Shown: positions 665 to 49,783, counted from the first letter of the stretch. The stretch: 64,000 nucleotides of DNA from Coriobacteriia bacterium (GCA_009778715.1 WRFR01000001.1:3383-67382), one strand, 5' to 3'. A program made the numbers and translations. The notes: generated by a model not told the origin, from the sequence alone.

Positions 665-739
665 CTACGGCGCAGGGCGCTGAACCGTATCGTTGCATGC
701 TTGTTTGTAAAAACCATTACAATATGTTATTCTTTTTGT

Positions 740-1783
740 ATGAAAGAGATTGTTACAAATATTGATATGCTTCGTGAAATTGCATTGGATCAGTATGGTT
801 ATGTTACTTTTGCTCAAGCTAGGGATGCCGGTGTTACGCAACCAGCGGTCGCAATGTTAACGCGCCGAGACAGACTGGATAAAGTTGCTCATGGGGTGTA
901 CCGCGTGCCTCAAGTACCGCCCACTCAACATGATCGGTATATGTTGGCGGTGTTATGGACGGGCGCGCCAGAGGCCTGCCTGAGCCACGATACTGCTCTT
1001 GAGGTTTACGAGGTAAGTGATATCAATCCGGCGAATATTCATGTTGCTGTTGCAAAACGGCGTCGCATAAACCGTGCGGGTGGAGAGGGCTATACGCTGC
1101 ATCATGCGGATCTGGCTCCGGAGCAGGTTACTTGGTGGGAGGGCATTCCAACCGTTAGACTGCCACTTGCGATTGCACAATGTATCGATGATGGTGTGCC
1201 TGCGTACCTCATTCGCCAGGCTTTAGAAAGGGCGCCACAAAAAGGTTTATTACTACCCGAAGAACAGATCAGCCTGATCGCACAGTTGGAAGCACGCAGC
1301 GGTAAAGCGGTTGAGGCGAAAAGTGATGTCGGAGGTGGTTGGTATAATAAGAACATGTCTATGGAACTTCAACAGAGAGCCCTTTCCCGTCCAAAGGATT
1401 TTGCTGATGCAGTGCGTCAGCTTGAGGCGGGTATGCCTGACTATGTTGTGATGGGCAATTTTCTGGATGAATTCTATCGTTTGCCACAATCAAAAAAGCA
1501 AGCTTCTCTTGATAAAGAACCGCCGGCATCCTCTGCACTTGAAAAGATGATGGCAGTAAACTATGCGGCTACTGCCGAAAAACTCGCACATGATTTTAAG
1601 CTGCAAGTTCCTGTATGGGTTAATAAGCCACGGTACTTTCTTGCTGAGGGTGAAGCGATATATGGGTATCGCCCGTACAAAGAGACGCGGGCTGACCTCG
1701 CAGAGATCCTTAGAGAAGAAGCGCCCGTCGAGTTCGCCCGGCGTAATCTTTTCGTTTCGGCTAATGCGCTAACAAGGGTCTAA
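740..1783 (+). CDS. AbiEi-like (type IV TA / abortive-infection antitoxin family) protein with ~180-aa extra C-terminal region
   Basis: The N-terminus (…REIALDQYGYVTFAQARDAGVTQPAVAMLTRRDRLDKVAHGVYRV…) matches the AbiEi wHTH pattern. It is followed by an AbiEi C-domain-like stretch (CLSHDTALEVYEV…VAVAKRRR…GIPTVRLPLAIAQCID). The listed ORF starts at TTG 701, and ATG 740 is the more plausible start. The stop overlaps or abuts the next gene (TAAgATG). Confidence 0.6.
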   Translation: MKEIVTNIDMLREIALDQYGYVTFAQARDAGVTQPAVAMLTRRDRLDKVAHGVYRVPQVPPTQHDRYMLAVLWTGAPEACLSHDTALEVYEVSDINPANIHVAVAKRRRINRAGGEGYTLHHADLAPEQVTWWEGIPTVRLPLAIAQCIDDGVPAYLIRQALERAPQKGLLLPEEQISLIAQLEARSGKAVEAKSDVGGGWYNKNMSMELQQRALSRPKDFADAVRQLEAGMPDYVVMGNFLDEFYRLPQSKKQASLDKEPPASSALEKMMAVNYAATAEKLAHDFKLQVPVWVNKPRYFLAEGEAIYGYRPYKETRADLAEILREEAPVEFARRNLFVSANALTRV

Positions 1784-1784
1784 G

Positions 1785-2345
1785 ATGAAAGAGGCATTTA
1801 CTCCGGAAGAGTTTCTTCAGCTTCTGTCGCAACTGTCAGTTTGCTTGGAGCACGAGGGGAAGAAGACCACCATTATCCTCTTTGGCGGCGGAGCGCTTTC
1901 TATGTACTATGGTGCGCGGTCCACGACTCATGATTTGGATGTATTGATTAATGGGGACGATCGCAGCAGCATTATTGAAGCCGTACGAAGAATTGCAGCG
2001 GATAATGACACGGTAGATGACTGGCTCAACGACGATGGCAAGAGTCTCATTACCGACGCGATAGTTGCTGATGCGCAAGATTTCATAACACTACCAGCAA
2101 TCACCATGAAAGTAGCATCCGCTGAAGCTCTGCTGGCCCTTAAGGCGGCAGCGCTCCGCTATCTCCCAGGTTCTCATGACCTGGAAGATGTGCGATTTCT
2201 GATCCAACGCCTGAAGGTTACGGATGTCGAAGAAGTCATCACGTTGGCGGAGAAATACCTGCCCCAAAGGCTTCTGCCGCTTTCTGCTTACAATGAAACA
2301 ATGCTGGATGTTTTGATTGAAGAGATCAACAAAGAGGGCAACTAA
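1785..2345 (+). CDS. Small nucleotidyltransferase, AbiEii/DUF1814-like N-terminal core (186 aa)
   Basis: Pol-beta-type NTase signature LFGGGALSMYYGARSTTHDLDVLI (GG[SG]x...R.T.D[LI]D). It sits immediately downstream of the AbiEi-like gene. It is shorter than canonical AbiEii (~250-300 aa). Confidence 0.55.
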   Translation: MKEAFTPEEFLQLLSQLSVCLEHEGKKTTIILFGGGALSMYYGARSTTHDLDVLINGDDRSSIIEAVRRIAADNDTVDDWLNDDGKSLITDAIVADAQDFITLPAITMKVASAEALLALKAAALRYLPGSHDLEDVRFLIQRLKVTDVEEVITLAEKYLPQRLLPLSAYNETMLDVLIEEINKEGN

Positions 2346-11133: not shown

Positions 11134-11526
11134 GTGTCCGCAACCTTTGAAAGAGAGCAGATCATGCCTAATAACGTACCCGGTTTGATCCAGATATCGA
11201 ATGATGTCCTGGCCGATCTCTCGGGCTATTGTGCCCTTGAAGTGTATGGAGTGGTCGCTATGGCTGCGCCTACCTTAGTCGAAGGAGTGGTCCAACTGCT
11301 GCCTGCACAGAAACTGCGGCGCGGCGTGCGCATCACAACGATTGACCTTGACGGCGAGGGCATGACAGTTGTTGATGTGGACCTCTATGTCATCATCGAA
11401 TATGGCACTAACCTCGCTGAGGTCAGCAAGAACCTGGCAGAGCGCGTACGTTACGTGTTAACTTCCCAGGCATCGGTAACCGTGGGGCGTGTCGACGTTC
11501 ATGTTCTTGATGTGAAGGTTCGGTGA
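11134..11526 (+). CDS. Asp23/Gls24-family (alkaline shock) protein, YloU-like
   Basis: 130 aa. Its position upstream of the DAK2 protein matches yloU-yloV. Confidence 0.75.
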   Translation: MSATFEREQIMPNNVPGLIQISNDVLADLSGYCALEVYGVVAMAAPTLVEGVVQLLPAQKLRRGVRITTIDLDGEGMTVVDVDLYVIIEYGTNLAEVSKNLAERVRYVLTSQASVTVGRVDVHVLDVKVR

Positions 11527-13151
11527 TCAATCCTATGACCGTTCAGGTATCCCCACGGGAGGTCATCGCTGGTGCGTCGGCCGTCCTGAAGTCTCGCCAC
11601 GAGGAAGTCAACAAGCTTAATGTGTTTCCGGTGCCTGATGGCGACACAGGTACGAACATGAGTCTCACGCTCGAGTCAGTGGTCAGCGAGGTACTTACCC
11701 TGCCCGCCGACGCAACGCTTGAAGAGATCACGAGAGCGGCTACCCACGGGTCGCTCATGGGTGCGCGCGGCAACTCGGGCGTTATCCTGTCGCAGATCAT
11801 CCGCGGCATCTGCGAGGGGATCATTGCCTCGTTGGATGAAAACGCTGGCGCGGAGCGTATGGCGCAGGCTTTTGAGCATGCGAAGACCGTTGCCTACCAG
11901 GCAGTGCGCAAGCCGGTCGAGGGCACGATGCTCACGGTAGTGAGTGACATGGCTATGGCTGCGCGTCAGGCAGCTGAGCAAGAGCAGTCCTTTGACGACG
12001 CGCTCCAGACTGTCTCGTCCGCGGCACACGTCTCGGTTCAGCGTACTCCCGATCTGCTGCCAATACTTAAGGAGTCCGGGGTCGTTGATTCGGGCGGTTT
12101 TGGCCTTGCGATCATTTTCGACGCGGTGGTCAACATACTTCTGGGCAAAGAGCAGGCCGAGGCGCCCGCGTTTGTGCCCCGTGGTGTTCTTTCGGTCAAT
12201 CCGGTCGACGACTGGGATGATGATGAGTATCTCTACTGCACGGAGTTCCTGCTGTTTGGTGAGGGGATCGACCGCGAGGCTGTGCATGACTTCATCGCGA
12301 GCCAGGGCGGGTCAGAACTGGTGGTCGGCGACTATGGACAGTACAAGATCCACGTTCATACTGATGATCCTTCCAAAGTACTGGCGTATGCGCTCACTCA
12401 GGGCGAGATAGCCGAGGTCCACATCCATAACATGCGCCGCCAGCAGGCGGAGCGGGGCCAGGGGTCTGAACCCGCCACCCCGGTGGCTCCCAAAAAGATC
12501 GGAGTCATCGCCGTGTCAGCGGGCGAGGGGACCGGCAATATCCTGAAGTCCCTTGGCGTTGACGTTCTGGTGTCCGGTGGACAGACGATGAACCCTTCCA
12601 CACAGGACTTTGTCGCGGCGGCAAAAAGCGTTCCAGCTGAGTCTTACATTTTGCTCCCCAACAACAGCAACATCGTGATGGCGGCCAATACGGCAGCCGC
12701 CCTGATCGAGGCGCCTACGATCGTTGTGCCAACGACTTCGATCCCTGAAGCGTTCTCAGCGCTGTTGGCTTTCGACGAGGGCATGGACCTGGATACGCTT
12801 CAGGCAGAGATGAGTGAAGCAGCCAGTGAGGTCACGACCGCTGAGGTCACCACAGCTATAAAGGACGCCAAATCGTCGGTCGGCGACATCAAAGAGGGAG
12901 ATATTATCGGTATCATTGGCTCCAAGGATATCCGTGCCAAAGGCACGAGCATCCCCGAGGTCGCGCTGTCACTGCTTGAGACCCTGCCGCTGGAAGAAGC
13001 CAGCACAATCACCCTGTTGACCGGTGTTGATCTTGACGCGATGGATCTAGCCAGGCTTCGTACAATGCTGTCAGAGCAGCACCCGGAGCTTGAATGTGAT
13101 ATTCAGGATGGTGGGCAACCGCTCTATCCGTTGGTCATGGCGGTCGAATAG
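11523..13151 (+). CDS. fakA: DAK2-domain protein (YloV / fatty-acid kinase FakA-like)
   Basis: 542 aa. N-terminal Dak2-like (…DGDTGTNM…GARGNSGVILSQI…) plus the C-terminal domain typical of YloV/FakA. Followed by a DegV gene. Confidence 0.75.
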   Translation: MINPMTVQVSPREVIAGASAVLKSRHEEVNKLNVFPVPDGDTGTNMSLTLESVVSEVLTLPADATLEEITRAATHGSLMGARGNSGVILSQIIRGICEGIIASLDENAGAERMAQAFEHAKTVAYQAVRKPVEGTMLTVVSDMAMAARQAAEQEQSFDDALQTVSSAAHVSVQRTPDLLPILKESGVVDSGGFGLAIIFDAVVNILLGKEQAEAPAFVPRGVLSVNPVDDWDDDEYLYCTEFLLFGEGIDREAVHDFIASQGGSELVVGDYGQYKIHVHTDDPSKVLAYALTQGEIAEVHIHNMRRQQAERGQGSEPATPVAPKKIGVIAVSAGEGTGNILKSLGVDVLVSGGQTMNPSTQDFVAAAKSVPAESYILLPNNSNIVMAANTAAALIEAPTIVVPTTSIPEAFSALLAFDEGMDLDTLQAEMSEAASEVTTAEVTTAIKDAKSSVGDIKEGDIIGIIGSKDIRAKGTSIPEVALSLLETLPLEEASTITLLTGVDLDAMDLARLRTMLSEQHPELECDIQDGGQPLYPLVMAVE

Positions 13152-13193
13152 CGTCAAAACAAGAGCGAGCGATACAGGGACAGGTAATAATCT

Positions 13194-14075
13194 ATGGGAA
13201 AGATCTTTGTAAAGAACGATATGGCGATCGTGACTGACGGTTGCGGTGATATCACTCTCGAGGAAGCGCGCGACCGTTCGATCTGTGTGCTGGAAACACA
13301 TATCACCCTGGGAGACGGCACCCTAACCGACTCCGAGCATTTTACCGCCCGGGATTTCTGGGATTCGCTCTTTGAGAATACCGAGGTACTGCCCAAGACC
13401 GCGCTGGTCACTCCGGGAAGATTTCTTGATTGCTACAAGCAGGCGGCAGAGGCAGGCGCAAAACATATTCTGGCAATCATCATGTCATCAGCGTTGTCAG
13501 GAGGTTATGACGCGGCTTGTCAGGCAGCGGAGCAGTCACCTGTGCCGACGACGGTCATCGATTCCCGTGCGGTGACACGCGGAACAGCCATACAGGTACT
13601 GGCTGCGGCAGACCTTCGTGACGCAGGGGTTCCTTTTGACGATATCGTGGCGCAGGTCACGGCTGTTCGCGATTCGATGCATATCGACTTTCTGGTCGAT
13701 AACCTTGAGTTTCTGGTACGGGGCGGTCGTGCAGGCAAATCGGCGCAAATGCTGGCGTCTGTGCTCAACATAAAGCCAGTATTGCGTGTCTTCGAGGACG
13801 GCAGTATCGATGCCTATAAGAAATGTCGGGGCACGAAAAAGGCGATGGCAGAACTTGCAAAGCGCGCCGTTGAAGACACGCCAGGCGAGGGATGGCACTA
13901 TTCCCTGGCTATTACCAGCAAGCCCGAACTTGAGGCGGTAGCCAACGAGGCTTTGGGGCACGCTGGATTCAAGGCGAGCTATGATGGTCCTTTCCAGGTG
14001 GGCATCATCGTTGGCATCTACTGCGGGCCGGGCACTGTTGCCGTACTGACCTATCGTCTTCCCTGCCTGCCGTAG
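13194..14075 (+). CDS. DegV-family fatty-acid-binding protein (FakB-like)
   Basis: 293 aa. …IIMSSALSGGYDAACQAA… matches the DegV SSxLSGTY motif. Confidence 0.75.
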   Translation: MGKIFVKNDMAIVTDGCGDITLEEARDRSICVLETHITLGDGTLTDSEHFTARDFWDSLFENTEVLPKTALVTPGRFLDCYKQAAEAGAKHILAIIMSSALSGGYDAACQAAEQSPVPTTVIDSRAVTRGTAIQVLAAADLRDAGVPFDDIVAQVTAVRDSMHIDFLVDNLEFLVRGGRAGKSAQMLASVLNIKPVLRVFEDGSIDAYKKCRGTKKAMAELAKRAVEDTPGEGWHYSLAITSKPELEAVANEALGHAGFKASYDGPFQVGIIVGIYCGPGTVAVLTYRLPCLP

Positions 14076-14127
14076 GGGCTGCAGGACGGACCGGACCCGT
14101 TGGGGCCGAATTACCGAGGAAGGTTAC

Positions 14128-16254
14128 GTGACTGCCTCATCTGCAATATCAACAAGCAGCGTTAATCCCGCGGCGCGTATGCAGGCTTGGGCAGCGCCGG
14201 TCAGCAGTGCGCGCTACGTTGACGATGAGCGTGCGTCCCAGCTGGGAAAGCTCGGCATCACGCGCATCGGGCATCTGCTTTACCACAAACCACTACGCTA
14301 TCTTGACTTGACGCATGTCTCATCTTTGGCAGAAGTCCATTTAGGGGAAGCAACAGTCATTGGCCAGGTATATGCGGTTCGGGAGCGCCGTCCGCGCCCA
14401 AAGCTGTTAGTGACCGAAGTGACGTTGACTGATGGCACGGGTACGCTGATCGGCGTGTGGTGGAATCAACCCTGGGTCAAAAAGGCTTTTCAACCGGGCG
14501 AGACGGTAGCCTTTGCGGGTACGGTCAAACTGGAATATGGGCTCAATCGCATTGTGCAGCCCTTTTATGAGAAATTAACTTCTGCGGATGGTTCTTCGCA
14601 CGCACAAGAGCCGACCAACCTGGGCCGTATCCTGCCCGTACACCCTACGACTGAGGGATTCTCAGTCGGCTGGATGAGGCGTATCATCGCGGCGGCCGTC
14701 AACGATTACGCCGATGTCCCCGAATACCTACCGCAAGAAGTACTGGAAGCGCGGGGGTTTATGCCCTTTGCGCAAGCCTTGCGTCAACTACATTTTCCCG
14801 ATGACTTGCAAAGCGCCGAGCAGGCGCGCCGCCGCCTGGCCTATGGCGAGTTCTTCGACTTCCAGTTGCTGCTGGCGCGGCGGGGCTGGCGCATGCGCAA
14901 CGAGAGCGGGGGATGGGCGCATGAGATAGGTGGCCCTCTGCTTGCGCGTTTTCGTGCGGAGATGCCACTGACACTGACCGATGACCAGGCCTGCGCAACC
15001 ACCGAGATCCTGGCTGATCTCGGGCGTCCCGAAGCAATGAACCGCCTGCTTTTAGGTGATGTCGGCACGGGCAAGACGCTCGTGGCGACCTTCGCGTTGG
15101 TTGCCGTGGCAGACACAGGGACGCAAGCTGCGATGATGGCGCCTACAGAAGTGCTCGCGCAGCAGTACGCATACAAGGTAGGCCCTCAGCTCGATGCGCT
15201 GAGCATCAGCTGGGCGCTGCTGACCAGCTCGACGCCGCCGGTAGAGCGCACGCGGATCCAGGCGGGCCTCGCAGACGGGAGCATCACGGTCGCGTTCGGG
15301 ACTCACGCCCTGCTGGAAGAGGACATCAACTTTAAGGCGCTCACTCTGACCATCATTGATGAGCAGCATCGTTTTGGTGTCGAACAGCGCCAGGGCCTGC
15401 AAAAAAAGGCCCAGTCACCAGACGTTTTGATCATGACCGCAACGCCCATCCCGCGCACGCTTGCGTTGCTTGCGTATGGCGACCTTCTGATATCCTACCT
15501 GCGCACCCGGCCCATCGCCGGTGCTGGCGTGAGCACACAACTGATCGATGCGACCAGGCTGGGGGAAGCTTATGATGCGGTGCGCACCGCTGTTGCTGCG
15601 GGGCAGCAGGCCTACGTGGTCTGCGCACTGGTCGAGGAGTCGGAGACTTTGGATGCGCGCTCGGTCGAAGAGGAGGCAGCGCGGCTTAAGGCCGAAGTGT
15701 TTGAAGACCTTTCGGTCGAGATACTGACCGGCAAGATGCGCCCGGCGGACAAAGAGGCGACGATGGCGCGCTTCCGGGCAGGAGAAATCCAGGTCCTGGT
15801 GGCGACTACGGTCATCGAGGTCGGCGTGGATGTGTTAAACGCCACGGTCATGGTCGTATTGGACGCTGATCGCTTTGGCCTGGCACAGCTGCATCAGCTG
15901 CGCGGCCGGGTCGGACGTGGCGAGATTGCCGGGCAGGTCTGGCTTGTGGCGCGTCATGCAAATGCAGAGGCGCGCGAGCGCCTACAGGCACTGGTCGAGA
16001 TCGATGACGGCTTTCGCCTGGCCGAGCTTGACCTGGAGATGCGCGGGGCAGGTGAACTCCTGGGGAGTCGGCAGAGCGGTCTGGCGCGTTTTGCCTTAGG
16101 TGACGTACTGGAAGATCGCGATCTTGTCAATGCAGCGCATGAAGACGTAGGGCCTCTTGCCGCCGACCTGGCTTTTGCAGATACCGAGACGCTACTCTCT
16201 TTGCGTATTGCTGCTCTGGAGGAAGAACTTGCAGCGGACGGGCCGGTGAACTGA
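14128..16254 (+). CDS. recG: ATP-dependent DNA helicase RecG
   Basis: 708 aa. N-terminal wedge/OB, GDVGTGKT Walker A, DEQHRFGV, HQLRGRVGRG. Confidence 0.9.
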   Translation: MTASSAISTSSVNPAARMQAWAAPVSSARYVDDERASQLGKLGITRIGHLLYHKPLRYLDLTHVSSLAEVHLGEATVIGQVYAVRERRPRPKLLVTEVTLTDGTGTLIGVWWNQPWVKKAFQPGETVAFAGTVKLEYGLNRIVQPFYEKLTSADGSSHAQEPTNLGRILPVHPTTEGFSVGWMRRIIAAAVNDYADVPEYLPQEVLEARGFMPFAQALRQLHFPDDLQSAEQARRRLAYGEFFDFQLLLARRGWRMRNESGGWAHEIGGPLLARFRAEMPLTLTDDQACATTEILADLGRPEAMNRLLLGDVGTGKTLVATFALVAVADTGTQAAMMAPTEVLAQQYAYKVGPQLDALSISWALLTSSTPPVERTRIQAGLADGSITVAFGTHALLEEDINFKALTLTIIDEQHRFGVEQRQGLQKKAQSPDVLIMTATPIPRTLALLAYGDLLISYLRTRPIAGAGVSTQLIDATRLGEAYDAVRTAVAAGQQAYVVCALVEESETLDARSVEEEAARLKAEVFEDLSVEILTGKMRPADKEATMARFRAGEIQVLVATTVIEVGVDVLNATVMVVLDADRFGLAQLHQLRGRVGRGEIAGQVWLVARHANAEARERLQALVEIDDGFRLAELDLEMRGAGELLGSRQSGLARFALGDVLEDRDLVNAAHEDVGPLAADLAFADTETLLSLRIAALEEELAADGPVN

Positions 16255-16257
16255 CCT

Positions 16258-16824
16258 ATGCGTATCATCGCCGGTGACTATAAGGGCAGAAATCTGCAGG
16301 GGCCTTCAGGCAGTGCGGGCACTCGCCCTACCGCCGACCGAGTCCGCGAGGCGCTCTTCTCGCACGTGGAAGCGCGCCTGGGGAACCTCCAAGGGCTGCG
16401 GGTAGTAGACCTGTTTGCGGGCACCGGAGCGCTTGGGCTTGAAGCGCTCTCACGCGGCGCGGTACATGCGGTCTTTGTCGAGACGGACCATACGGTTGCA
16501 GGAATCTTGCGAAACAATATCGAGCATTGCGGAGCTGAAGAGCGTACGACGCTGAGGGTAGGCAATGCTTTCGTCCTGTCTGCTCGTCTGGCGCCGCTCG
16601 GCCCCTTTGATCTGGTTCTGCTCGACCCGCCCTATCGCACCCCTGCAGAAGAAGTGATGCGCCTATTGGAAGCCTTGCGCCAGGAAGGCGCGATCGCGTC
16701 AGGGACCTATGTCGTCTACGAGCATGAGCGCCGCACCCCACCGCTCTGGCCTGCGTGTTATGATGAGGTGCATCAGGCGCGCTATGGCAAGACTTACCTG
16801 AGCAGTGCCGTTGTTATCAGGTGA
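16258..16824 (+). CDS. rsmD: 16S rRNA (guanine966-N2)-methyltransferase RsmD
   Basis: MRIIAGDYKGRNL…RPTADRVREALFS…LDPPY. Confidence 0.85.
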   Translation: MRIIAGDYKGRNLQGPSGSAGTRPTADRVREALFSHVEARLGNLQGLRVVDLFAGTGALGLEALSRGAVHAVFVETDHTVAGILRNNIEHCGAEERTTLRVGNAFVLSARLAPLGPFDLVLLDPPYRTPAEEVMRLLEALRQEGAIASGTYVVYEHERRTPPLWPACYDEVHQARYGKTYLSSAVVIR

Positions 16825-16849
16825 CAAAGGGTCAGGTACTTTGTCACCT
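16819..16849. repeat. AGGTGACAAAG-ggtcaggta-CTTTGTCACCT palindromic repeat, copy 4 (contains rsmD stop codon)
   Basis: 11-bp perfect arms. The TGA of rsmD is the tga of gTGAcaaag. Confidence 0.55.
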
Positions 16850-16870
16850 GACAGAAAGTTGAGGCAGACT

Positions 16871-17353
16871 ATGACGACCGCCGTCGTACCCGGGACTTTT
16901 GACCCAATCACCTCAGGGCACCTCGATATCATCGAGCGTGCGGCTCATCTCTTTGATGAGGTGATCGTGGGTGTGGCAGCATCGGAGCACAAGAACGGCA
17001 CCGGGCCGCTCTTCACCGCGGATCAGCGTGTGGGCTTGATCCAGGAAGCGACCGCACACCTGAACAACATCAGAGTGGCTCCATTCGAAACGCTGCTCAT
17101 CGACTTTGTCCGTGCCCAGGGAGGCGATGTCATTGTCAAGGGTCTGCGCGCGATGACTGACTTTGAGCATGAATTCCAGATGGCGGCACTCAACGGGCGT
17201 ATGAACAGCGAGGTTGAGACGCTCTTCATCATGTCTGCGCCTGAGTTCATGTATCTGAGTTCGTCTGCGGTCAAGGAGATCGCGGCTTTGGGCGGGCCGG
17301 TAAATGGCCTGGTGCCGAACTGTGTTGAAAAGGCGCTCCGTAACGGTTTTTAA
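16871..17353 (+). CDS. coaD: Phosphopantetheine adenylyltransferase
   Basis: MTTAVVPGTFDPITSGHLDIIERA… (T/HxGH). The listed ORF begins at 16805. ATG 16871 fits the CoaD N-terminus. Confidence 0.9.
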   Translation: MTTAVVPGTFDPITSGHLDIIERAAHLFDEVIVGVAASEHKNGTGPLFTADQRVGLIQEATAHLNNIRVAPFETLLIDFVRAQGGDVIVKGLRAMTDFEHEFQMAALNGRMNSEVETLFIMSAPEFMYLSSSAVKEIAALGGPVNGLVPNCVEKALRNGF

Positions 17354-17476
17354 AACTAGGGTAACGCTTCTTAATATGCCGGTTCGATTTGCCGTATGAT
17401 ACTATACGCTTCTGTTCTTTATGTGCAGTGATGGCATATAGAGAATCCGAATCACCAGATTTGAAAGGTGTGGCAC

Positions 17477-17932
17477 ATGGATATTTTGCAGCTCATCGAT
17501 CGCATCGAGGAGGCTATCGACTCAGCAAAGTCGGTTCCCCTGAGCAGCAATAAAATGGTCGATCCTGATGCGATCTTCGACATCATCGATGAGATACGCA
17601 GCCAGTACCCTGAAGATTTGAAGCAGGCACGCTGGATTGTGAAGCAGCGCCAGGAGATGACCGAGGAAGCGGAGCGCGAGGCGAACCGAATCCTGGAGGA
17701 GGCACAGGAGCGCGCGCGTGGATTGGTCGCTGATACGGAGATCGTTCGTCAGGCGGAGACCCGCGCGGCAGAGATCATGGATGACGCTCGTGCCAACGAG
17801 CGTGAGATCCGCTTGGGCGCCGAGGACTATGCTGATGAGATGATGGCCAACCTTGAGGTCAACCTTGGCAAGATGCTCACCGCTGTCCAGCGCGGCCGCG
17901 ATCGCCTGCAGGGCAAACCCATCCAGCGCTAA
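17477..17932 (+). CDS. Hypothetical acidic coiled-coil protein (151 aa)
   Basis: Charged, helical sequence (…EEAEREANRILEEAQERARGLVADTEIVRQAETRAAEIMDDARANEREIRLGAEDYADEMM…) with no Cys. SD GAAAGG 8 nt upstream of ATG 17477. It occupies the slot before rpmF. Confidence 0.4.
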   Translation: MDILQLIDRIEEAIDSAKSVPLSSNKMVDPDAIFDIIDEIRSQYPEDLKQARWIVKQRQEMTEEAEREANRILEEAQERARGLVADTEIVRQAETRAAEIMDDARANEREIRLGAEDYADEMMANLEVNLGKMLTAVQRGRDRLQGKPIQR

Positions 17933-18036
17933 GACCAAGCGCGTAGCATACTGCTCAGTATAGTTCTGCTTACTGCGCGCAAGTTTGCTATACTGAGAAA
18001 CCGTCTGAAACATAAGAAAAGGAATCGAGTAATACC

Positions 18037-18210
18037 ATGGCAGTACCTAAGAGGAAAAAAGGACGCGCAAAAACGAACTCGCGTCGGAGCAGCCACAGCC
18101 TGGAAGCGGCGGCCACACAGGAATGTCCGCAGTGCCACGAGCCAAAGCTCCCGCATCAGGTGTGCCCGCATTGTGGAACCTACAATGGCAAGCAGGTCAT
18201 CGCGGTCTAG
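18037..18210 (+). CDS. rpmF: 50S ribosomal protein L32
   Basis: MAVPKRKKGRAKTNSRRSSHSLEAAATQECPQCHEPKLPHQVCPHCGTYNGKQVIAV (57 aa, below the ORF-track cut-off). Cys4 zinc ribbon. SD AAAAGGAAtcgagtaataccATG. Confidence 0.8.
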   Translation: MAVPKRKKGRAKTNSRRSSHSLEAAATQECPQCHEPKLPHQVCPHCGTYNGKQVIAV

Positions 18211-18258
18211 CGCCCGCTCTTTGAGAGCCTTGAGCCAACTGGCCTGCTCTTGTTTAAG

Positions 18259-18286
18259 CGTGACAAACACCCCGAGGTGATCGTCA
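18259..18286. repeat. GTGACAAACACCCC-gag-GTGATCGTCAC palindromic repeat, copy 5 (imperfect)
   Basis: Shares gtgacaaacacccc with copy 2. Lies between rpmF and plsX. Confidence 0.5.
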
Positions 18287-18301
18287 CATTAAGGATTACT
18301 A

Positions 18302-19357
18302 ATGAATATCACCGCACGTATCTCCGTCGACGGCCTCGGCGGAGATTTTGCACCTCAGGTCGTTTGCGAAGGGACGAGCCTTGCGCTGCAGCGTGATAAT
18401 GCGCTGCAGGTGATACTCACCGGCCCTCAGGACGCACTGGATGCCTTGGCGCAGTCTCTGCCAGCCGAGCAACGCGATCGTCTCCTCCTTCATCCCACTA
18501 CAGAAGCCATCACGATGGGCGAGCATCCTGCCAATGCGGTGCGCACGAAGAAGGACTCCTCGCTGGTGGTCGCGGCGCGCCTGGTCAAAGAGGGAGAGGC
18601 TGATGGCTTCTTCAGCGCGGGATCGACCGGCGCCTGCCTGGCGGCCGGTACGCTTATCGTCGGGCGTATTCCCGGGGTCATGCGACCAGCTATTGGGGTG
18701 ATCCTTCCCGGCGTCAGCCCAACGGTCTTGCTTGATACGGGCGCCAATGCCGATGTCAAACCTGAATATCTGGTACAGTTCGCGCAAATGGGTGCGACTT
18801 ATGCCCAGGCTGTCCTTGAGGTAGAAAAACCCCGGATAGCGCTGCTCAATATTGGCGAAGAAGATACGAAGGGCAGCAAGCTTGCCCAGGAAACTTTCCA
18901 GCTGCTGAGCGACGCAACCCCGGGTTTCATCGGCAACGTAGAAGGCCGTGATTTGCTGACCGGAGCAGCCGACGTCATCGTTGCTGATGGCTTCACCGGC
19001 AATGTCACGCTGAAGACCCTTGAGGGTTCAAGCAGCTTCGTCTTAGGGCAGCTCAAGAGCGCGCTCATGTCATCGACCACTTCAAAACTTGCGGCTCTGA
19101 TCTTGAAAAAGCAGTTTGCGGATCTGAAGGAACGCCTTAACCCTGACCGTTACGGTGGCGCGCCCCTGCTGGGGGTGAGCGGCCTGGTCTGCATCGGGCA
19201 CGGCTCTTCCTCTGCCGAAGCTATCGCAGCTGGCATTCTTACCACGGCAAAAGCAGTGCGTGGACAGGTGGTTGCAGATATTGCGCTCCAGGTAGCTCAG
19301 GCGCAGGAAGACCGATCGCGTGCGTCGCAGGACGCCCCTGAGGTTTCGGAGGCCTGA
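18302..19357 (+). CDS. plsX: Phosphate acyltransferase PlsX
   Basis: 351 aa. …VDGLGGDFAPQVV…GSTGA… PlsX fold. Conserved position before fabD/acpP. Confidence 0.9.
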   Translation: MNITARISVDGLGGDFAPQVVCEGTSLALQRDNALQVILTGPQDALDALAQSLPAEQRDRLLLHPTTEAITMGEHPANAVRTKKDSSLVVAARLVKEGEADGFFSAGSTGACLAAGTLIVGRIPGVMRPAIGVILPGVSPTVLLDTGANADVKPEYLVQFAQMGATYAQAVLEVEKPRIALLNIGEEDTKGSKLAQETFQLLSDATPGFIGNVEGRDLLTGAADVIVADGFTGNVTLKTLEGSSSFVLGQLKSALMSSTTSKLAALILKKQFADLKERLNPDRYGGAPLLGVSGLVCIGHGSSSAEAIAAGILTTAKAVRGQVVADIALQVAQAQEDRSRASQDAPEVSEA

Positions 19358-20296
19358 GTGGGACAGAAGAGTCTCGCGCTCATCTTCACCGGCTATGGCG
19401 CGCAGCATCAGGGCATGTTGCGTAACTTGCAGAACTTGCCTGATGTGAACCTCGAACTGACGCGCTTGCTCGACGCGGCGGAAGGGTTGAGTGAACTTCA
19501 GCTCACCAAAATCGCCGAGTCAGGCCCCGATAACCTGCTCGCCGAACCACGAGTCGCTTTTCCTTTGCTATTTATCGCTGATTATCTCTGGGCGCATTAC
19601 GCGCGAGGGGTCGGCATGCGTCCACAGGTCATGGCCGGCCATGATGTAGGAGAATACGCTGCTCTGGCCCATGCAGGCGTGCTGTCGACGACGTCGGCGC
19701 TCGACCTGGTGGTCAGACTCTCCCGACTTCTGGAAGAGGGCGCCCGTGACAGCGATGGGGCGACCTTGGTGATCCTGGGCCTTCCGGTCGCCGATGTCAG
19801 GAAATTTCTTGCTTCGAACTCTTCCCAGGGCCAGGTCTGGGTATCATGCGATAACAGTGCTGACCAGGTTATCATCGGTGGAGTGCAGAGCGTGCTTGAA
19901 GCGTTGATGCCTGGTCTGCAGAGTGTAGGGGCGCGCCAGGTGCTGCTCAGCCCACATCGTGGCGCCTTCAACACTCCGCTGGTCTCTAAAGCGGCGGATC
20001 GGTATCGTGGCATCCTCGGACAGACCGAACTTCGGGACGCGAAGATACCCGTGATCATGAACGCGACAGCACAGGTGGCCACAGGCAGCTCGGAGTTCCT
20101 TGAACCGTTGGCCTCACAGGTCACCCATACCATCCGATGGCGGGAGACCATGGATCACATTGCTGCACACGCGCCGGTCATCTGCGTCGAAAGTGGCCCC
20201 GGCAGCACGCTTTCTGACCTGAACGATACCGATGAGGGTATTGAGTATTACTCGCTCGCGCAAAGTGGTATCATCAAGCTCTTGAACAGACTATAA
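19358..20296 (+). CDS. FabD-like (malonyl-CoA:ACP transacylase fold) protein with substituted catalytic residues
   Basis: Aligns to FabD along its full length (LIFTGYGAQHQGM ~ FVFPGQGSQTVGM; MAGHDVGEYAAL ~ MAGHSLGEYSAL; LLSPHRGAFNTPLV ~ PVSVPSHCALM). Q11, the catalytic Ser and the catalytic His are replaced by Y, D and N respectively. Confidence 0.7.
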   Translation: MGQKSLALIFTGYGAQHQGMLRNLQNLPDVNLELTRLLDAAEGLSELQLTKIAESGPDNLLAEPRVAFPLLFIADYLWAHYARGVGMRPQVMAGHDVGEYAALAHAGVLSTTSALDLVVRLSRLLEEGARDSDGATLVILGLPVADVRKFLASNSSQGQVWVSCDNSADQVIIGGVQSVLEALMPGLQSVGARQVLLSPHRGAFNTPLVSKAADRYRGILGQTELRDAKIPVIMNATAQVATGSSEFLEPLASQVTHTIRWRETMDHIAAHAPVICVESGPGSTLSDLNDTDEGIEYYSLAQSGIIKLLNRL

Positions 20297-20373
20297 GCTC
20301 TGTGGTTTAATGCAAAAGAGCGATCGCTGTGAGGCGGCCGCTTACGAAACGAGTTGCGTGAAGGAGGTGCAGT

Positions 20374-20613
20374 ATGGAAAGAAGCGAAGTACTGAAGACT
20401 ATCACTTCGGTCGTCGCCGACCAACTGGGCGTCGAGGCGAGCGAGGTCAAAGAGTCATCTTCCTTTATTGAGGACTTCGGAGCTGATTCGCTCGACCTTG
20501 TGGAGCTGGTTATGGCATTCGAGGACGAATTCGGTGTCACTATCCCTGATGAGGATGTAGAGAATATCAAGACAGTAAGTGATGCGGCAGATTTTATCAC
20601 GGCGCACGCCTAA
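20374..20613 (+). CDS. acpP: Acyl carrier protein
   Basis: …DLGADSLDLVELVMAFEDEFG… with the DSLD phosphopantetheine attachment site. Confidence 0.9.
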   Translation: MERSEVLKTITSVVADQLGVEASEVKESSSFIEDFGADSLDLVELVMAFEDEFGVTIPDEDVENIKTVSDAADFITAHA

Positions 20614-20634
20614 GTCTTTCTTACAGACTATCGA

Positions 20635-20668
20635 GAGAACTCCTGCTTGTGTCAGGAGTTCTTTTATT
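20635..20668 (+). terminator. Rho-independent terminator after acpP
   Basis: GAACTCCTG-cttgtgt-CAGGAGTTC followed by TTTTATT. Confidence 0.65.
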
Positions 20669-20791
20669 AAAACGTGATCGGCGTCCGCTGGGCAGGCGTC
20701 ACAATACGAAGCGGGCTCTTGCCCGTGAGTTTTGTGAGAACAAACCCAGCGGGCGCCCAGCGCGTTTTATGTAGGATACAATAGATTAGCT

Positions 20792-21496
20792 ATGGCTATA
20801 CGTATATCAGAAAAAGAGATCGATGCGCGCTTGCAACGGGCAGAGGAGCTCCTCGGACATCACTTTGCGGATCGCGCCCTGCTCAGGCAGGCTCTCACGC
20901 ATGCTTCAGCGACCGAAGGGAGCCCTGAAGACGATTATGAACGCCTGGAGTTCCTTGGCGATGCGGTAGTTGGTTTCCTGATCGCAGACACCGTATTCGA
21001 ACAATATCCTGCGTTTCCCGAGGGAGACCTGACAAAGCTGCGGGTCGCGGTCATCAACGGAAGCTTTCTTACCGAAGTCATGCTGGAGCGCGGATTTGCA
21101 GAGCTCATCATATTCGGTGCAAGCGAGCAAGGCGTGGGGTCGCGCGGCCTGCCTTCAGCGCTGGAGGATATCTATGAGTCCTGTACGGCGGCGCTTTATC
21201 TCGATAGTGGCCTGAACGAGGCGAAGCGTTGGGTACTCGACACCCTCGGACCGTACCTGGATCCTGAGTTGTTGGCGACCGCGGCCAGCCCTAAGTCACG
21301 CCTGCAGGAGATCATGCAGGAACAGGGCCGACAGGTGAGCTACAGCATCGTGAATGTAGAAGGACCTGCGCATGCCCCCTGTTTTACTGCGGCAGCTTTG
21401 ATCGATGGCGCAGAAAAGGCTCAGGGGTCAGGCTCTTCGAAGAAAGAAGCTGAGAGCGCAGCAGCGGCGCTCGTTCTCGAGAGGCTCGTGGGATAG
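20792..21496 (+). CDS. rnc: Ribonuclease III
   Basis: …ERLEFLGDAV… RNase III signature plus a C-terminal dsRBD. Confidence 0.9.
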   Translation: MAIRISEKEIDARLQRAEELLGHHFADRALLRQALTHASATEGSPEDDYERLEFLGDAVVGFLIADTVFEQYPAFPEGDLTKLRVAVINGSFLTEVMLERGFAELIIFGASEQGVGSRGLPSALEDIYESCTAALYLDSGLNEAKRWVLDTLGPYLDPELLATAASPKSRLQEIMQEQGRQVSYSIVNVEGPAHAPCFTAAALIDGAEKAQGSGSSKKEAESAAAALVLERLVG

Positions 21497-27637: not shown

Positions 27638-28177
27638 TTGTCAGTAAAGATCCGCCTATCGCGCCATGGCGCGAAGAAAGCTCCGTTCTACCGCGTGGTT
27701 GTGGCCGACGAGCGCAAGCCGCGCGACGGTCGTTTCATCGAGATCGTGGGGCGCTACAATCCGCGTCTGGAGCCTTCCGGCGTTGAACTCAACCTTGAAA
27801 GCATCGACGCGTGGCTGGCCAAGGGCGCTCAGCCGACCGAGGCCGCTGCAAAGTTGATCGCGATCGCTCGCGGCGAAAAGAAGCCGGTCGAAGCAGAGAA
27901 AAAGCCGACCAAACGCCAGGTAGCCAAACAGGAGGCAGAAGCTGCCGAAGCCGCAAAGGCTGCTGAGGCTGAAAAGACCGCTGCTGAAGAGGCCGCTCAG
28001 GCTGCCGAAGCTGAGAAAGCAACTGCAGAAGAGCCTGTTGCTGAGGAGGCGCCAGCCGAGGAGACTGCACCTGCTGCTGAGGACGCTCCGGTCGAGGAAG
28101 CTCCTGCTGAAGACGCTCCTGTTGAAGAGCCAGTTGAAAAGTCGGCTGACTCCGACGCTGCGGCTGAGGAGCAATAA
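27638..28177 (+). CDS. rpsP: 30S ribosomal protein S16 with ~100-aa Ala/Glu-rich C-terminal extension
   Basis: [43 protein letters not shown]… followed by [11 protein letters not shown]…APAEE low-complexity tail. Confidence 0.85.
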
Positions 28178-49645: not shown

Positions 49646-49783
49646 AAACCTGGCAAGCGACCAATGCGGCGGAAGCCGTAAATACACATGTGGACTGATC
49701 GACGTTCTCAGGTGCCCTTAAAGGGGAGAAATGTTGGGAAGACGTTCGCAGAGGAGACAACCGAAAGGAAGGTGGCCAGTCGT

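What the first reader, a model, noticed from the sequence alone, without database searches (positions are those of the whole stretch)
11523..20613. Catalytically substituted FabD-like gene in the plsX-acpP cluster together with FakA/FakB: signature of exogenous fatty-acid dependence?
Seen: the FabD-like ORF (19358-20296) aligns along its full length with malonyl-CoA:ACP transacylase. The oxyanion Gln is replaced by Tyr (GQGSQ > GYGAQ). The nucleophilic Ser is replaced by Asp (GHSLGE > GHDVGE). The catalytic His is replaced by Asn (AFHS > AFNT). No fabH or fabG lies between plsX and acpP. In the same window, a DAK2/YloV-type protein (FakA-like) and a DegV protein (FakB-like) sit upstream. Established: FakA/FakB phosphorylate exogenous fatty acids, and PlsX interconverts acyl-phosphate and acyl-ACP. 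Inference: the organism may rely on host or environmental fatty acids, with FabD retained as a pseudoenzyme.
Basis: partly seen in the sequence, partly recalled or inferred. Interest (0 to 1): 0.6.

Follow-up and report, generated by a model that had tools for sequence, protein, structure and literature searches.

The report
Dead FabD retained beside PlsX and ACP
An uncultured termite-gut Coriobacteriia bacterium has deleted the fatty-acid-synthesis genes from its plsX-acpP cluster but still keeps, under purifying selection, a well-folded FabD copy that has lost every catalytic residue, so the protein probably now does a non-enzymatic job that nobody has described.

Summary
ORF 19358-20296 is a full-length FabD-fold protein (pLDDT 94.9, TM 0.9 to solved FabDs). 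It has also lost the ACP/CoA-contact residues K279 and K286/R287.

They are substituted in all 10 orthologues from termite-gut Coriobacteriia MAGs.

The nearest canonical relatives (36-39% identity) carry plsX-fabH-fabK-fabD-fabG-acpP-fabK-fabF-rnc. This clade carries only plsX-fabD*-acpP-rnc, and six-frame searches find no remnants of the missing genes.

fabD* is not decaying. dN/dS is 0.15-0.25, it abuts or overlaps plsX, and it sits in the same reduced locus in at least three deeper Coriobacteriia lineages. In most of those the nucleophile position is Gly, which argues against a new Asp-based chemistry.

Constraint has moved from the catalytic motifs to other segments, including the C-terminal helix.

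Best reading: a FabD-derived pseudoenzyme kept for a non-catalytic role, probably tied to PlsX/ACP handling of scavenged fatty acids. Genome-wide absence of FASII, and the actual function, could not be tested here. NCBI names the protein "ACP S-malonyltransferase", which is a misannotation.

The parts
11523..13151 (+). FakA-like fatty acid kinase catalytic subunit (YloV type; DGDTG motif present)
   Evidence: Pfam Dak2 + FakA-like_M + FakA-like_C. NCBIfam TIGR03599 YloV 538.7 bits against cut-off 396. The FakA_VfrB equivalog model is not reached (404.7 against 975). Identity to clade orthologues is 76-84%.
13194..14075 (+). DegV-family protein (FakB-like fatty-acid-binding subunit)
   Evidence: Pfam DegV 194 bits. 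TIGR00762 213.5 bits against 99.7. FakB1 equivalog not reached (95.8 against 350). It is fast-evolving: 70-72% identity within the clade and 32-33% to the deeper lineages.
18037..18210 (+). rpmF (ribosomal protein L32), first recognisable gene of the rpmF-plsX-fabD*-acpP run
   Evidence: ORF found. TIGR01031 85.4 bits against 22.6. It occupies the same position in L003, L009, L010 and L012-L014.
18302..19357 (+). PlsX, acyl-ACP:phosphate acyltransferase
   Evidence: Pfam FA_synthesis 344 bits. TIGR00182 337 bits against 243. dN/dS is 0.07-0.17.
19358..20296 (+). fabD*: FabD-fold protein of 312 aa without any of the malonyl-transacylase catalytic residues. It has a GTG start preceded by GGAGG, directly abutting the plsX stop codon.
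   Evidence: The AlphaFold model has pLDDT 94.9 and pTM 0.93. Foldseek gives TM about 0.90 to 3ezo, 3tqe and 6u0j. dN/dS is 0.15-0.25.
19394..19396 (+). Codon TAT = Tyr13, at the oxyanion-hole Gln11 position of E. coli FabD
   Evidence: Tyr is invariant in the 10 clade members. It is Tyr, Phe or Leu in the other degenerate lineages, and Gln in all 211 canonical FabDs.
19643..19645 (+). Codon GAT = Asp96, at the nucleophile Ser92 position
   Evidence: The residue is Gly (GGC) in clade member P0009/L003 and Gly in most sister lineages. This is consistent with a path AGY(Ser) -> GGY(Gly) -> GAY(Asp).
19718..19720 (+). Codon for Leu121, at the malonyl-carboxylate-binding Arg117 position
   Evidence: Leu is present in all 10 clade members. 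The position is Arg, Tyr, Leu, Met or Ile in the other degenerate lineages.
19970..19972 (+). Codon AAC = Asn205, at the catalytic His201 position
   Evidence: Asn is present in all 10 clade members, one step from CAY(His).
20243..20293 (+). C-terminal helix EYYSLAQSGIIKLLNRL (residues 296-312), a segment that has gained constraint relative to canonical FabDs
   Evidence: It is almost invariant in the clade. The pattern P..Q..G....R is shared by all degenerate lineages. Of all 11-residue windows, this has the largest excess of conservation over canonical FabDs (+0.24).
20374..20613 (+). acpP, acyl carrier protein with a canonical DSLD phosphopantetheine site
   Evidence: Pfam PP-binding. TIGR00517 93 bits against 70. 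dN/dS is 0-0.06 and identity within the clade is 84-100%.
20711..20726 (+). Terminator-like GC hairpin followed by a T-run, between acpP and rnc; a possible operon end
   Evidence: This is a consensus match only, and the number of such sites is not above the shuffled expectation.

Best explanation
fabD* is the vertical descendant of the Coriobacteriia fabD gene, still in its original position between plsX and acpP.

What happened (shown):
- In an ancestor of these lineages, fabH, both fabK copies, fabG and fabF were cleanly deleted from the cluster.
- FabD lost its Ser-His dyad, the oxyanion Gln, the malonyl-binding Arg, and the basic residues that dock ACP regions 1 and 2 and stack on the CoA adenine. 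It therefore cannot work as a malonyl-CoA:ACP transacylase.
- The protein stays folded and under purifying selection. It is translationally coupled to PlsX. It has acquired new conserved segments: helix 31-46, segment 176-191, segment 216-231 and the C-terminal helix 296-312.

Most likely mechanism (inferred):
- fabD* is a non-catalytic accessory protein of the PlsX/ACP module, which is all that remains of the lipid-building machinery in this cluster.
- FakA and DegV make acyl-phosphate from scavenged fatty acids. PlsX converts it to acyl-ACP for PlsC.
- FabD*, made in stoichiometry with PlsX, binds PlsX and/or ACP through its retained region-3 ACP patch (Arg193, Leu196) and its new conserved surfaces. 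In that role it would stabilise, localise or bias the exchange.

My probabilities:
- Dead for malonyl transfer and under purifying selection: about 0.9.
- The lineage lacks FASII and scavenges fatty acids: about 0.65.
- The retained role is specifically a PlsX/ACP-linked non-catalytic one: about 0.3.
For: Catalytic residues are replaced.
- Alignments to solved FabDs and to E. coli FabD show this.
- The same positions do not vary in the 211 canonical FabDs.
- The NCBIfam fabD model scores 159 bits against a cut-off of 260.9.

The fold is retained.
- pLDDT is 94.9.
- TM is about 0.9 to FabD structures, including the FabD-AcpP complex 6u0j.

The gene is an orthologue and FASII was lost in place.
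- Canonical relatives L006, L007 and L008 carry plsX-fabH-fabK-fabD-fabG-acpP-fabK-fabF-rnc.
- Clade loci L001, L003, L005, L009, L010 and L011 carry plsX-fabD*-acpP-rnc.
- tblastn with the L006 Fab proteins finds nothing else in the window.
- Trp78 and Trp161 are shared with the canonical Coriobacteriia FabDs, which marks common descent.

Selection.
- dN/dS is 0.15-0.25 for fabD*, against 0.07-0.17 for plsX and 0.04-0.16 for rnc.
- The least saturated pairs give 0.16 (dS 0.76) and 0.245 (dS 0.63).

Long retention.
- The same reduced locus with a degenerate FabD occurs in deeper lineages L012, L013 and L014, at only 32-37% identity to the window protein.
- All seven degenerate sub-groups share the derived residues Asp133 ([ST]DG motif) and Pro185, which the canonical relatives lack.

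No new chemistry at the old site.
- The nucleophile position is Gly in P0009 and in most sister lineages.
- Positions 117, 121, 160 and 201 differ between sub-groups.

Shift of constraint.
- Constraint has moved away from the catalytic and CoA/ACP-binding motifs and towards other segments, most strongly the C-terminus.

Coupling to plsX.
- The junction is a 0-nt gap or a 4- or 8-nt overlap in 6 of 8 loci, and GGAGG precedes the GTG in the window.

ACP contact residues.
- According to the E. coli FabD-AcpP study (bioRxiv 10.1101/2020.05.15.098798), K189/R190/L192 form region 3, K279 forms region 1, and R287 forms region 2 and also stacks on the CoA adenine.
- Here region 3 is kept as Arg193/Leu196, while K279 is Ser and K286/R287 are Asp/Thr.
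Against: - No interaction, ligand or activity data exist. The PlsX/ACP-partner role is inferred only from gene order, translational coupling and conservation patterns.
- Two of the three canonical ACP-docking patches are lost, so binding of ACP in the canonical mode may be weak or absent.
- plsX-fabD-acpP linkage is ancestral. Adjacency after the deletions could therefore be historical rather than functional.
- fabD* is the fastest-evolving gene of the neighbourhood, together with degV.
- Whole-genome absence of FASII was not tested.
- dS is near saturation for most pairs, so most of the dN/dS values are only rough.
- The conservation comparison sets a single class (Coriobacteriia) against FabDs from all bacteria. 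Only the relative pattern along the sequence is meaningful.
Confidence: 0.6

Rival explanations
1. FabD* is still an enzyme with a new chemistry or substrate. For example, it could be a long-chain acyl transferase or hydrolase that uses Asp96 as nucleophile in a pocket made hydrophobic by R117L, Q11Y and Q63F, acting on acyl-phosphate or acyl-ACP.
For: - Pocket residues Tyr13, Asp96 (9 of 10), Leu121, Leu125, Cys164 and Asn205 are essentially invariant within the termite clade.
- Asp recurs at the nucleophile position in a second sub-group (P0114, P0369, P0370).
- Loss of Arg117 fits non-carboxylated acyl groups. This point rests on my own knowledge of AT-domain specificity.
Against: - The nucleophile position is Gly in clade member P0009/L003 and in most sister lineages.
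- His201 is Asn, so there is no general base.
- Positions 117, 121, 160 and 201 are not conserved between sub-groups that share the same locus.
- Relative constraint on all the catalytic-motif segments has dropped.
Confidence: 0.12
2. fabD* is a functionless remnant that simply has not been deleted yet. Alternatively, it is kept only because its DNA carries signals needed for acpP expression.
For: - It is the least conserved protein of the neighbourhood, at 62-81% identity within the clade against 74-100% for plsX, acpP and rnc.
- All catalytic residues are gone.
- Its dN/dS is somewhat higher than that of its neighbours.
Against: - dN/dS of 0.15-0.25 is far below 1.
- The full-length ORF (304-320 aa) is intact in about 25 distinct 90%-identity clusters across 7 sub-groups, which are only 30-37% identical to each other.
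- The same genomes deleted five neighbouring fab genes cleanly.
- New residues conserved across the family have appeared: Asp133, Pro185 and the C-terminal motif.
- The fold prediction is confident.
Confidence: 0.08
3. The organism still makes fatty acids with genes located elsewhere: a relocated or acquired FASII set with a canonical fabD, or an actinobacterial type-I FAS. On this reading fabD* is a diverged paralogue-like leftover unrelated to scavenging.
For: - Only 64 kb of the genome was examined.
- fabZ and accABCD are not part of the ancestral cluster in the canonical relatives, so parts of the pathway normally lie elsewhere.
Against: - fabH, fabG, fabF and both fabK copies were removed from their ancestral position in every lineage that carries fabD*.
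- The reduced state has been stable across deep divergences.
- No second FabD-like sequence is in the window.
- This is indirect evidence only.
Confidence: 0.2
4. FabD* was retained for a moonlighting structural role outside lipid metabolism, for example in ribosome biogenesis.
For: - FabD-fold proteins occur as components of ribosome-assembly intermediates. Examples are human mitochondrial MCAT in 8csp chain 8 and a trypanosomal 'acyl transferase-like protein' in 7pua chain Fg. Both are listed among the hits, and 8csp_8 also.
- fabD* lies in a run with rpmF, near rsmD and rnc, and upstream of ffh-rpsP-rimM-trmD.
Against: - This neighbourhood is ancestral and is shared with FASII-proficient bacteria, so it adds no specific support.
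- No sequence feature links FabD* to RNA or ribosomal proteins.
Confidence: 0.05

Closest known systems
FabD, malonyl-CoA:ACP transacylase (TIGR00128; E. coli 1mla/2g2z/6u0j)
   Same: - Full-length homology, with E = 1e-30 to 3tqe.
- The same two-subdomain fold, TM about 0.9.
- The orthologous gene position between plsX and acpP (searches compared with 12-14).
- The G-H-x-x-G-E scaffold, the GA[RK] ACP region-3 patch and the E-x-G-P-G motif are all kept.
   Different: - Ser92 -> Asp, His201 -> Asn, Gln11 -> Tyr and Arg117 -> Leu.
- Gln63, Met121, Met132 and Asn160 are changed.
- Lys279 and Lys286/Arg287 are lost.
- The score is 100 bits below the family's curated cut-off.
- Family-specific conserved residues have been gained: Asp133, Pro185 and the C-terminal helix.
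FakA/FakB-PlsX route for incorporating exogenous fatty acids in Gram-positive bacteria
   Same: - FakA-like, DegV, PlsX and ACP are all present and under constraint.
- Morvan et al. 2016 (PMC5059476) proposed that FabD and PlsX compete for ACP, and that weaker FabD favours use of exogenous fatty acids. Loss of FabD's ACP and CoA contacts here goes in the same direction.
   Different: - In the characterised organisms (S. aureus, Streptococcus, Enterococcus) the route coexists with a working FASII and an active FabD.
- Neither the FakA nor the FakB equivalog model is reached here.
- PlsY and PlsC were not seen in the window.
Fatty-acid auxotrophy through loss of the fab operon in host-associated bacteria (for example urinary-tract Lactobacillus; bioRxiv 10.64898/2026.04.23.720460)
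   Same: A gut- or host-associated lineage has lost the clustered fab genes (searches compared with 12-14; for the Lactobacillus precedent).
   Different: - In that study the operon is scored simply as present or absent. In the passages I read, no retained, catalytically dead FabD under selection is reported.
- Here one gene of the operon survives as a pseudoenzyme.
FabD-fold proteins used structurally: MCAT in human mitoribosomal small-subunit assembly intermediates (8csp) and the acyl-transferase-like protein of trypanosomal mitoribosome assembly (7pua)
   Same: They have the same fold, and they show that this fold can serve as a structural module in a large complex.
   Different: - They are eukaryotic organellar proteins.
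- No link to PlsX or to fatty-acid scavenging is known.
- Homology is distant (23% identity to 8csp_8).
- Whether their roles are non-catalytic is from my memory and was not tested here.

Membership tests
FabD / ACP S-malonyltransferase (TIGR00128 equivalog) | Whole-protein score at or above the curated NCBIfam cut-off | tested here: not met
   The score is 159 bits against a cut-off of 260.9.
FabD / ACP S-malonyltransferase (TIGR00128 equivalog) | Ser92-His201 catalytic dyad (GHSxG and xFHS motifs) | tested here: not met
   The residues are Asp96 and Asn205. Ser and His are present in all 211 canonical sequences, but that is by construction, because they were part of the rule that defined the set.
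FabD / ACP S-malonyltransferase (TIGR00128 equivalog) | Arg117 binding the malonyl carboxylate, and Gln11 of the oxyanion hole | tested here: not met
   The residues are Leu121 and Tyr13.
FabD / ACP S-malonyltransferase (TIGR00128 equivalog) | Basic ACP/CoA contact residues K189/R190, K279 and K286/R287 (E. coli numbering; bioRxiv 10.1101/2020.05.15.098798) | tested here: inconclusive
   Region 3 is kept (Arg193, Leu196). K279 is Ser283, and K286/R287 are Asp/Thr. Binding itself was not measured.
FabD / ACP S-malonyltransferase (TIGR00128 equivalog) | Malonyl-CoA:ACP transacylase activity | not testable with these tools
   This needs an enzyme assay or complementation of a fabD(Ts) strain.
Acyl_transf_1 superfamily (Pfam PF00698), FabD/AT fold | Pfam gathering score reached, and the alpha/beta-hydrolase-like core plus ferredoxin-like subdomain fold present | tested here: met
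   The Pfam score is 77.2 bits against 32.7. The AlphaFold model has pLDDT 94.9. Foldseek gives TM 0.88-0.91 to many FabDs.
Pseudoenzyme (catalytically dead homologue retained by selection) | Loss of essential catalytic residues together with evidence of purifying selection and conservation across species | tested here: met
   Residue loss is shown. dN/dS is 0.15-0.25. Intact orthologues occur in the same locus in lineages only 32-37% identical. Absence of every activity cannot be shown by computation.
Fatty acid kinase FakA (NF038248) / YloV subfamily (TIGR03599) | Dak2 + FakA-like_M + FakA-like_C architecture and curated score | tested here: inconclusive
   The architecture is present and the YloV subfamily cut-off is met (538.7 against 396). 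The FakA_VfrB equivalog cut-off is not met (404.7 against 975).
FakB / DegV fatty-acid-binding protein | DegV domain model, and FakB equivalog model | tested here: inconclusive
   The TIGR00762 domain cut-off is met (213.5 against 99.7). The FakB1 equivalog cut-off is not met (95.8 against 350).
PlsX phosphate acyltransferase (TIGR00182) | Curated equivalog score | tested here: met
   The score is 337.1 bits against 243.4.
FASII-deficient fatty-acid auxotroph | Absence of FabH/F, FabG, FabZ, an enoyl reductase and Acc genome-wide; growth dependent on exogenous fatty acids | not testable with these tools
   Only the local cluster and the 64-kb window could be examined.

The most novel reading that the evidence does not exclude
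FabD has a hidden non-catalytic function that becomes visible only when FASII is lost. On this reading FabD* is an obligatory structural partner of PlsX and/or ACP. It would bind through its region-3 patch and the newly constrained C-terminal helix, and it would enable or direct acyl-phosphate -> acyl-ACP flux for phospholipid synthesis from scavenged fatty acids. That would make a PlsX-FabD-ACP assembly a general but overlooked feature of Gram-positive lipid metabolism.
Probability: 0.2. Interest if true: 0.75.

Novelty: new variant of a known kind. Interest (0 to 1): 0.55.

Why it matters
- A dead FabD kept under selection in several deep lineages after the rest of FASII was removed implies a function for the FabD fold beyond malonyl transfer. 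A search of the held full-text library for 'FabD' together with 'pseudoenzyme' returned no paper.
- If that function is coupled to PlsX and ACP, it bears on how bacteria build membranes purely from scavenged fatty acids, and therefore on how they bypass FASII-targeted antibiotics. The competition between FabD and PlsX for ACP has already been proposed as the deciding factor in that bypass (PMC5059476).
- There is also a practical point. NCBI's pipeline names these proteins "ACP S-malonyltransferase", so metabolic reconstructions of these gut MAGs would wrongly score a FASII step as present.

Tried and rejected
1. Asp96 as a new catalytic nucleophile. I rejected this as the main reading. The position is Gly in clade member P0009 and in most sister lineages, and the other pocket residues vary between sub-groups.

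2. Decaying pseudogene. Rejected on dN/dS, intact ORFs and gained conserved residues.

3. Single origin or repeated origin of the degenerate family.
   - NJ trees of PlsX+ACP+Rnc and of FabD gave the same uninformative three-way unrooted topology.
   - Single origin is favoured only by the shared derived Asp133 and Pro185.

4. Cultured or named carriers.
   - The exhaustive search of 1.84 billion representative proteins found only 8 degenerate stand-alone cluster representatives among the best 150 hits.
   - Two further profile searches added a few more.
   - Every one that carries a name is an uncultured Coriobacteriia or 'Actinomycetes' MAG.
   - The word pre-filter of those profile searches missed known members, so the negative result is soft.

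5. The genome-collection scan found only one GTDB representative, WQYT01 Emb289P4bin29.

6. Literature searches for an inactive FabD, or for fatty-acid-synthesis loss in Coriobacteriia, found nothing specific.

7. The afdb50 fold library was not available.

8. The promoter/terminator scan was not above the shuffled expectation.

9. Rfam found only 4 tRNAs in the window.

10. The p154 protein gave no family or PDB match.

Its length (309 aa) and the motif positions (Q11, S92, R117, H201) agree with the accepted numbering. The substitutions are also seen independently against PDB sequences.

Full report
**What is at the coordinates**

The region 11134-21496 reads, all on the + strand:
- Asp23, 11134-11526
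- FakA/YloV-type kinase, 11523-13151
- DegV, 13194-14075
- RecG, 14128-16254
- RsmD, 16258-16824
- CoaD, about 16877-17353
- an uncharacterised 154-aa protein, 17468-17932
- rpmF, 18037-18210
- PlsX, 18302-19357
- the FabD-like ORF, 19358-20296
- ACP, 20374-20613
- RNase III, 20792-21496
- then SMC, FtsY and Ffh

These calls rest. PlsX, ACP, DegV (domain model) and YloV (subfamily model) pass their curated cut-offs. The FabD-like protein passes Pfam Acyl_transf_1 (77 bits against 32.7) but not the NCBIfam fabD equivalog (159 bits against 260.9).

**The substitutions are real**

phmmer against PDB sequences aligns the protein end to end with solved FabDs (3tqe, E = 1e-30). The printed alignments show:
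- GYGAQ opposite GQGSQ
- GHDVGE opposite GHSLGE
- AFNTP opposite the His motif
- Leu opposite the malonyl-binding Arg

MAFFT alignments with E. coli FabD give Q11→Y13, S92→D96, R117→L121 and H201→N205. They also give Q63→F, M121→L, N160→C, K279→S and K286/R287→D/T. Its length and motif numbering agree with the standard numbering.

R117 and H201 were, with Q11 and S92, part of the rule that defined the canonical set.

The AlphaFold model is confident (mean pLDDT 94.9, pTM 0.93). It superposes on FabD structures with TM about 0.9, including the FabD-AcpP complex 6u0j. So this is a well-folded FabD scaffold with the chemistry removed.

**Who carries it**

- The identical protein is NCBI MCL2881295.1, named "ACP S-malonyltransferase [Coriobacteriia bacterium]".
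- Ten 90%-identity clusters (62-100% identity) share Tyr13, Leu121 and Asn205. Nine of the ten have Asp96, and one (P0009) has Gly.
- The only GTDB species representative found is WQYT01, isolate Emb289P4bin29. This is a MAG from the P4 gut compartment of the humus-feeding termite Embiratermes neotenicus (PMC7024585).
- An exhaustive HMMER search of 1.84 billion representative proteins collapses the clade into a single 50%-identity cluster.

**Comparative context: the key result**

The nearest canonical relatives are P0011, P0012 and P0013 (36-39% identity), from Coriobacteriia/Actinobacteria MAGs. They have GQGSQ, GHSLGE, Arg and His.

- Their cluster is coaD - p152 - yceD - rpmF - plsX - fabH - fabK - fabD - fabG - acpP - fabK - fabF - rnc - smc.
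- Every locus of the termite clade is rpmF - plsX - fabD* - acpP - rnc - smc, with Asp23-FakA-DegV-RecG-RsmD-CoaD upstream.
- tblastn with the relatives' FabH, FabK, FabG and FabF proteins finds nothing in any frame of the 64-kb window. The intergenic gaps are 0, 77 and 178 nt, so the deletions are clean.
- Pfam scans of about 60 further ORFs of the window show ordinary housekeeping genes and no FASII, Acc, PlsY or PlsC gene.

**Retained, not decaying**

| Gene | Pairwise dN/dS (Nei-Gojobori) |
|---|---|
| fabD* | 0.15-0.25 |
| plsX | 0.07-0.17 |
| rnc | 0.04-0.16 |
| acpP | 0-0.06 |

 The least saturated fabD* pairs give 0.16 (dS 0.76) and 0.245 (dS 0.63).

fabD* and degV are the fastest-evolving genes of the neighbourhood, but both are clearly constrained.

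In 6 of 8 loci the fabD* start abuts or overlaps the plsX stop (0, -4 or -8 nt). In the window a GGAGG precedes the GTG.

**A wider degenerate family**

The profile search also recovered other stand-alone FabD-like proteins without the catalytic set: P0098, P0102, P0103, P0107, P0114, P0162 and P0178. Later searches added P0252-P0257 and P0369-P0371. One of them is again a Coriobacteriia MAG protein, MBK5211716.1.

Three that could be placed on contigs (L012, L013, L014) sit in the same reduced locus, rpmF-plsX-fabD*-acpP-rnc. They have the same upstream Asp23-FakA-DegV-RecG block. These organisms are as distant from the window organism as the canonical relatives are (PlsX 53-62%, SMC 53-57%).

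Across the seven sub-groups:
- The nucleophile is Gly in most, Asp in two, and Ser in one (P0098).
- Position 117 is Arg, Tyr, Leu, Met or Ile.
- Position 201 is Asn, His, Tyr or Gly.
- All share Tyr/Phe/Leu at position 11 and a hydrophobic or small non-Gln residue at position 63.
- All share the derived residues Asp133 ([ST]DG motif) and Pro185, which the canonical Coriobacteriia FabDs lack.

Codon states fit single-step paths AGY(Ser) → GGY(Gly) → GAY(Asp) and CAY(His) → AAY(Asn).

NJ trees could not decide between one and several origins. The shared derived residues favour one origin.

**What this says about function**

The old active site is not conserved between sub-groups, and Gly is tolerated at the nucleophile position. 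A common new chemistry at that site is therefore unlikely.

Relative to canonical FabDs, constraint falls at every catalytic or substrate-binding segment:
- residues 6-21
- residues 91-101
- residues 156-176
- residues 191-211
- residues 281-296, the K286/R287 segment

It rises elsewhere:
- helix 31-46
- residues 101-116
- residues 176-191
- residues 216-231
- most strongly the C-terminal helix 296-312, EYYSLAQSGIIKLLNRL

Three ACP-contact regions were defined for E. coli FabD (bioRxiv 10.1101/2020.05.15.098798).
- Region 3 (K189/R190/L192) survives as Arg193/Leu196.
- Region 1 (K279) is lost.
- Region 2 (R287, which also stacks on the CoA adenine) is lost.

ACP itself keeps the canonical DSLD...E helix II and is the most constrained gene of the cluster.

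I conclude that FabD* is a pseudoenzyme with a non-catalytic role. The most economical candidate is an accessory role in the PlsX/ACP module that handles FakA/DegV-activated fatty acids. This last step is inference from gene order, translational coupling and conservation only. Morvan et al. proposed that FabD and PlsX compete for ACP during FASII bypass in S. aureus (PMC5059476). That gives a rationale for why FabD's malonyl, CoA and canonical ACP contacts would be selected away once FASII is gone.

**What remains open**

- Genome-wide absence of FASII or FAS-I, and real fatty-acid dependence, could not be tested.
- FakA and DegV upstream are ancestral synteny, not a specific signature.
- No interaction or ligand data exist.

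**Novelty**

A search of the held full-text library for 'FabD' together with 'pseudoenzyme' returned no paper, and the other searches on inactive FabD or on fatty-acid-synthesis loss in Coriobacteriia found nothing specific. Loss of the fab operon with fatty-acid auxotrophy is known in other host-associated bacteria (bioRxiv 10.64898/2026.04.23.720460). I therefore rate this as a new variant of a known kind: a FabD-derived pseudoenzyme of unknown role in a FASII-reduced lineage. It is currently misannotated as an active enzyme.

Noticed in passing
window 17468-17932 (+): A 154-aa, probably coiled-coil protein with no Pfam, NCBIfam (only sub-threshold FliH/DivIVA/ATP-synthase-b-like hits) or PDB match. 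It is nevertheless the most conserved gene of the neighbourhood: 97% identity across the termite clade and 71-81% to distant Coriobacteriia. It always lies between coaD and (yceD-)rpmF.
   Followed up: partly
window 17933-18036; compare L006 1084-1632, L008 508-1056, L012 8079-8609: The yceD (DUF177) gene lies between p154 and rpmF in the canonical relatives and in the deeper degenerate lineages. It is absent from the window and from L003, L005 and L009, and tblastn finds no remnant. So the termite clade lost yceD as well as the fab genes.
   Followed up: partly
window 19358-20296; NCBI MCL2881295.1, MCL2655359.1, MCL2332935.1, MBK5211716.1: Public annotation names these catalytically dead proteins 'ACP S-malonyltransferase'. 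Pathway reconstructions would therefore wrongly credit these MAGs with a FabD step.
   Followed up: yes
window 701-2345 (+): An AbiEi-like antitoxin (701-1783) and an AbiEii/DUF6036-like nucleotidyltransferase (1785-2345) form a type IV toxin-antitoxin pair. They lie in the lowest-GC part of the window (GC 0.49 in 1-2000).
   Followed up: no
window 27638-28177 (+) and 49688-50740 (+): The ribosomal protein S16 ORF is 179 aa, and only its first 67 residues match the S16 model. The S2 ORF is 350 aa, with the S2 domain at residues 42-257. Both carry long extensions, if the ORF starts and ends are right.
   Followed up: no
window 44656-45792 (+): A 378-aa protein in which Pfam finds only PASTA repeats and no kinase or transpeptidase domain.
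   Followed up: no
window 13194-14075 (+) compared with L012-L014: DegV (the FakB-like protein) is as fast-evolving as fabD*. It is 32-33% identical between the window and the deeper lineages, where FakA is 55-61%. This suggests shifting fatty-acid specificity.
   Followed up: no
L006 1986-5149: In one canonical relative, an acetyl-CoA-synthetase-like (ADP-forming; CoA_binding/Succ_CoA_lig/ATP-grasp_5) gene and a DRTGG/AAA_26 gene are inserted between rpmF and plsX. They are absent from the window.
   Followed up: no
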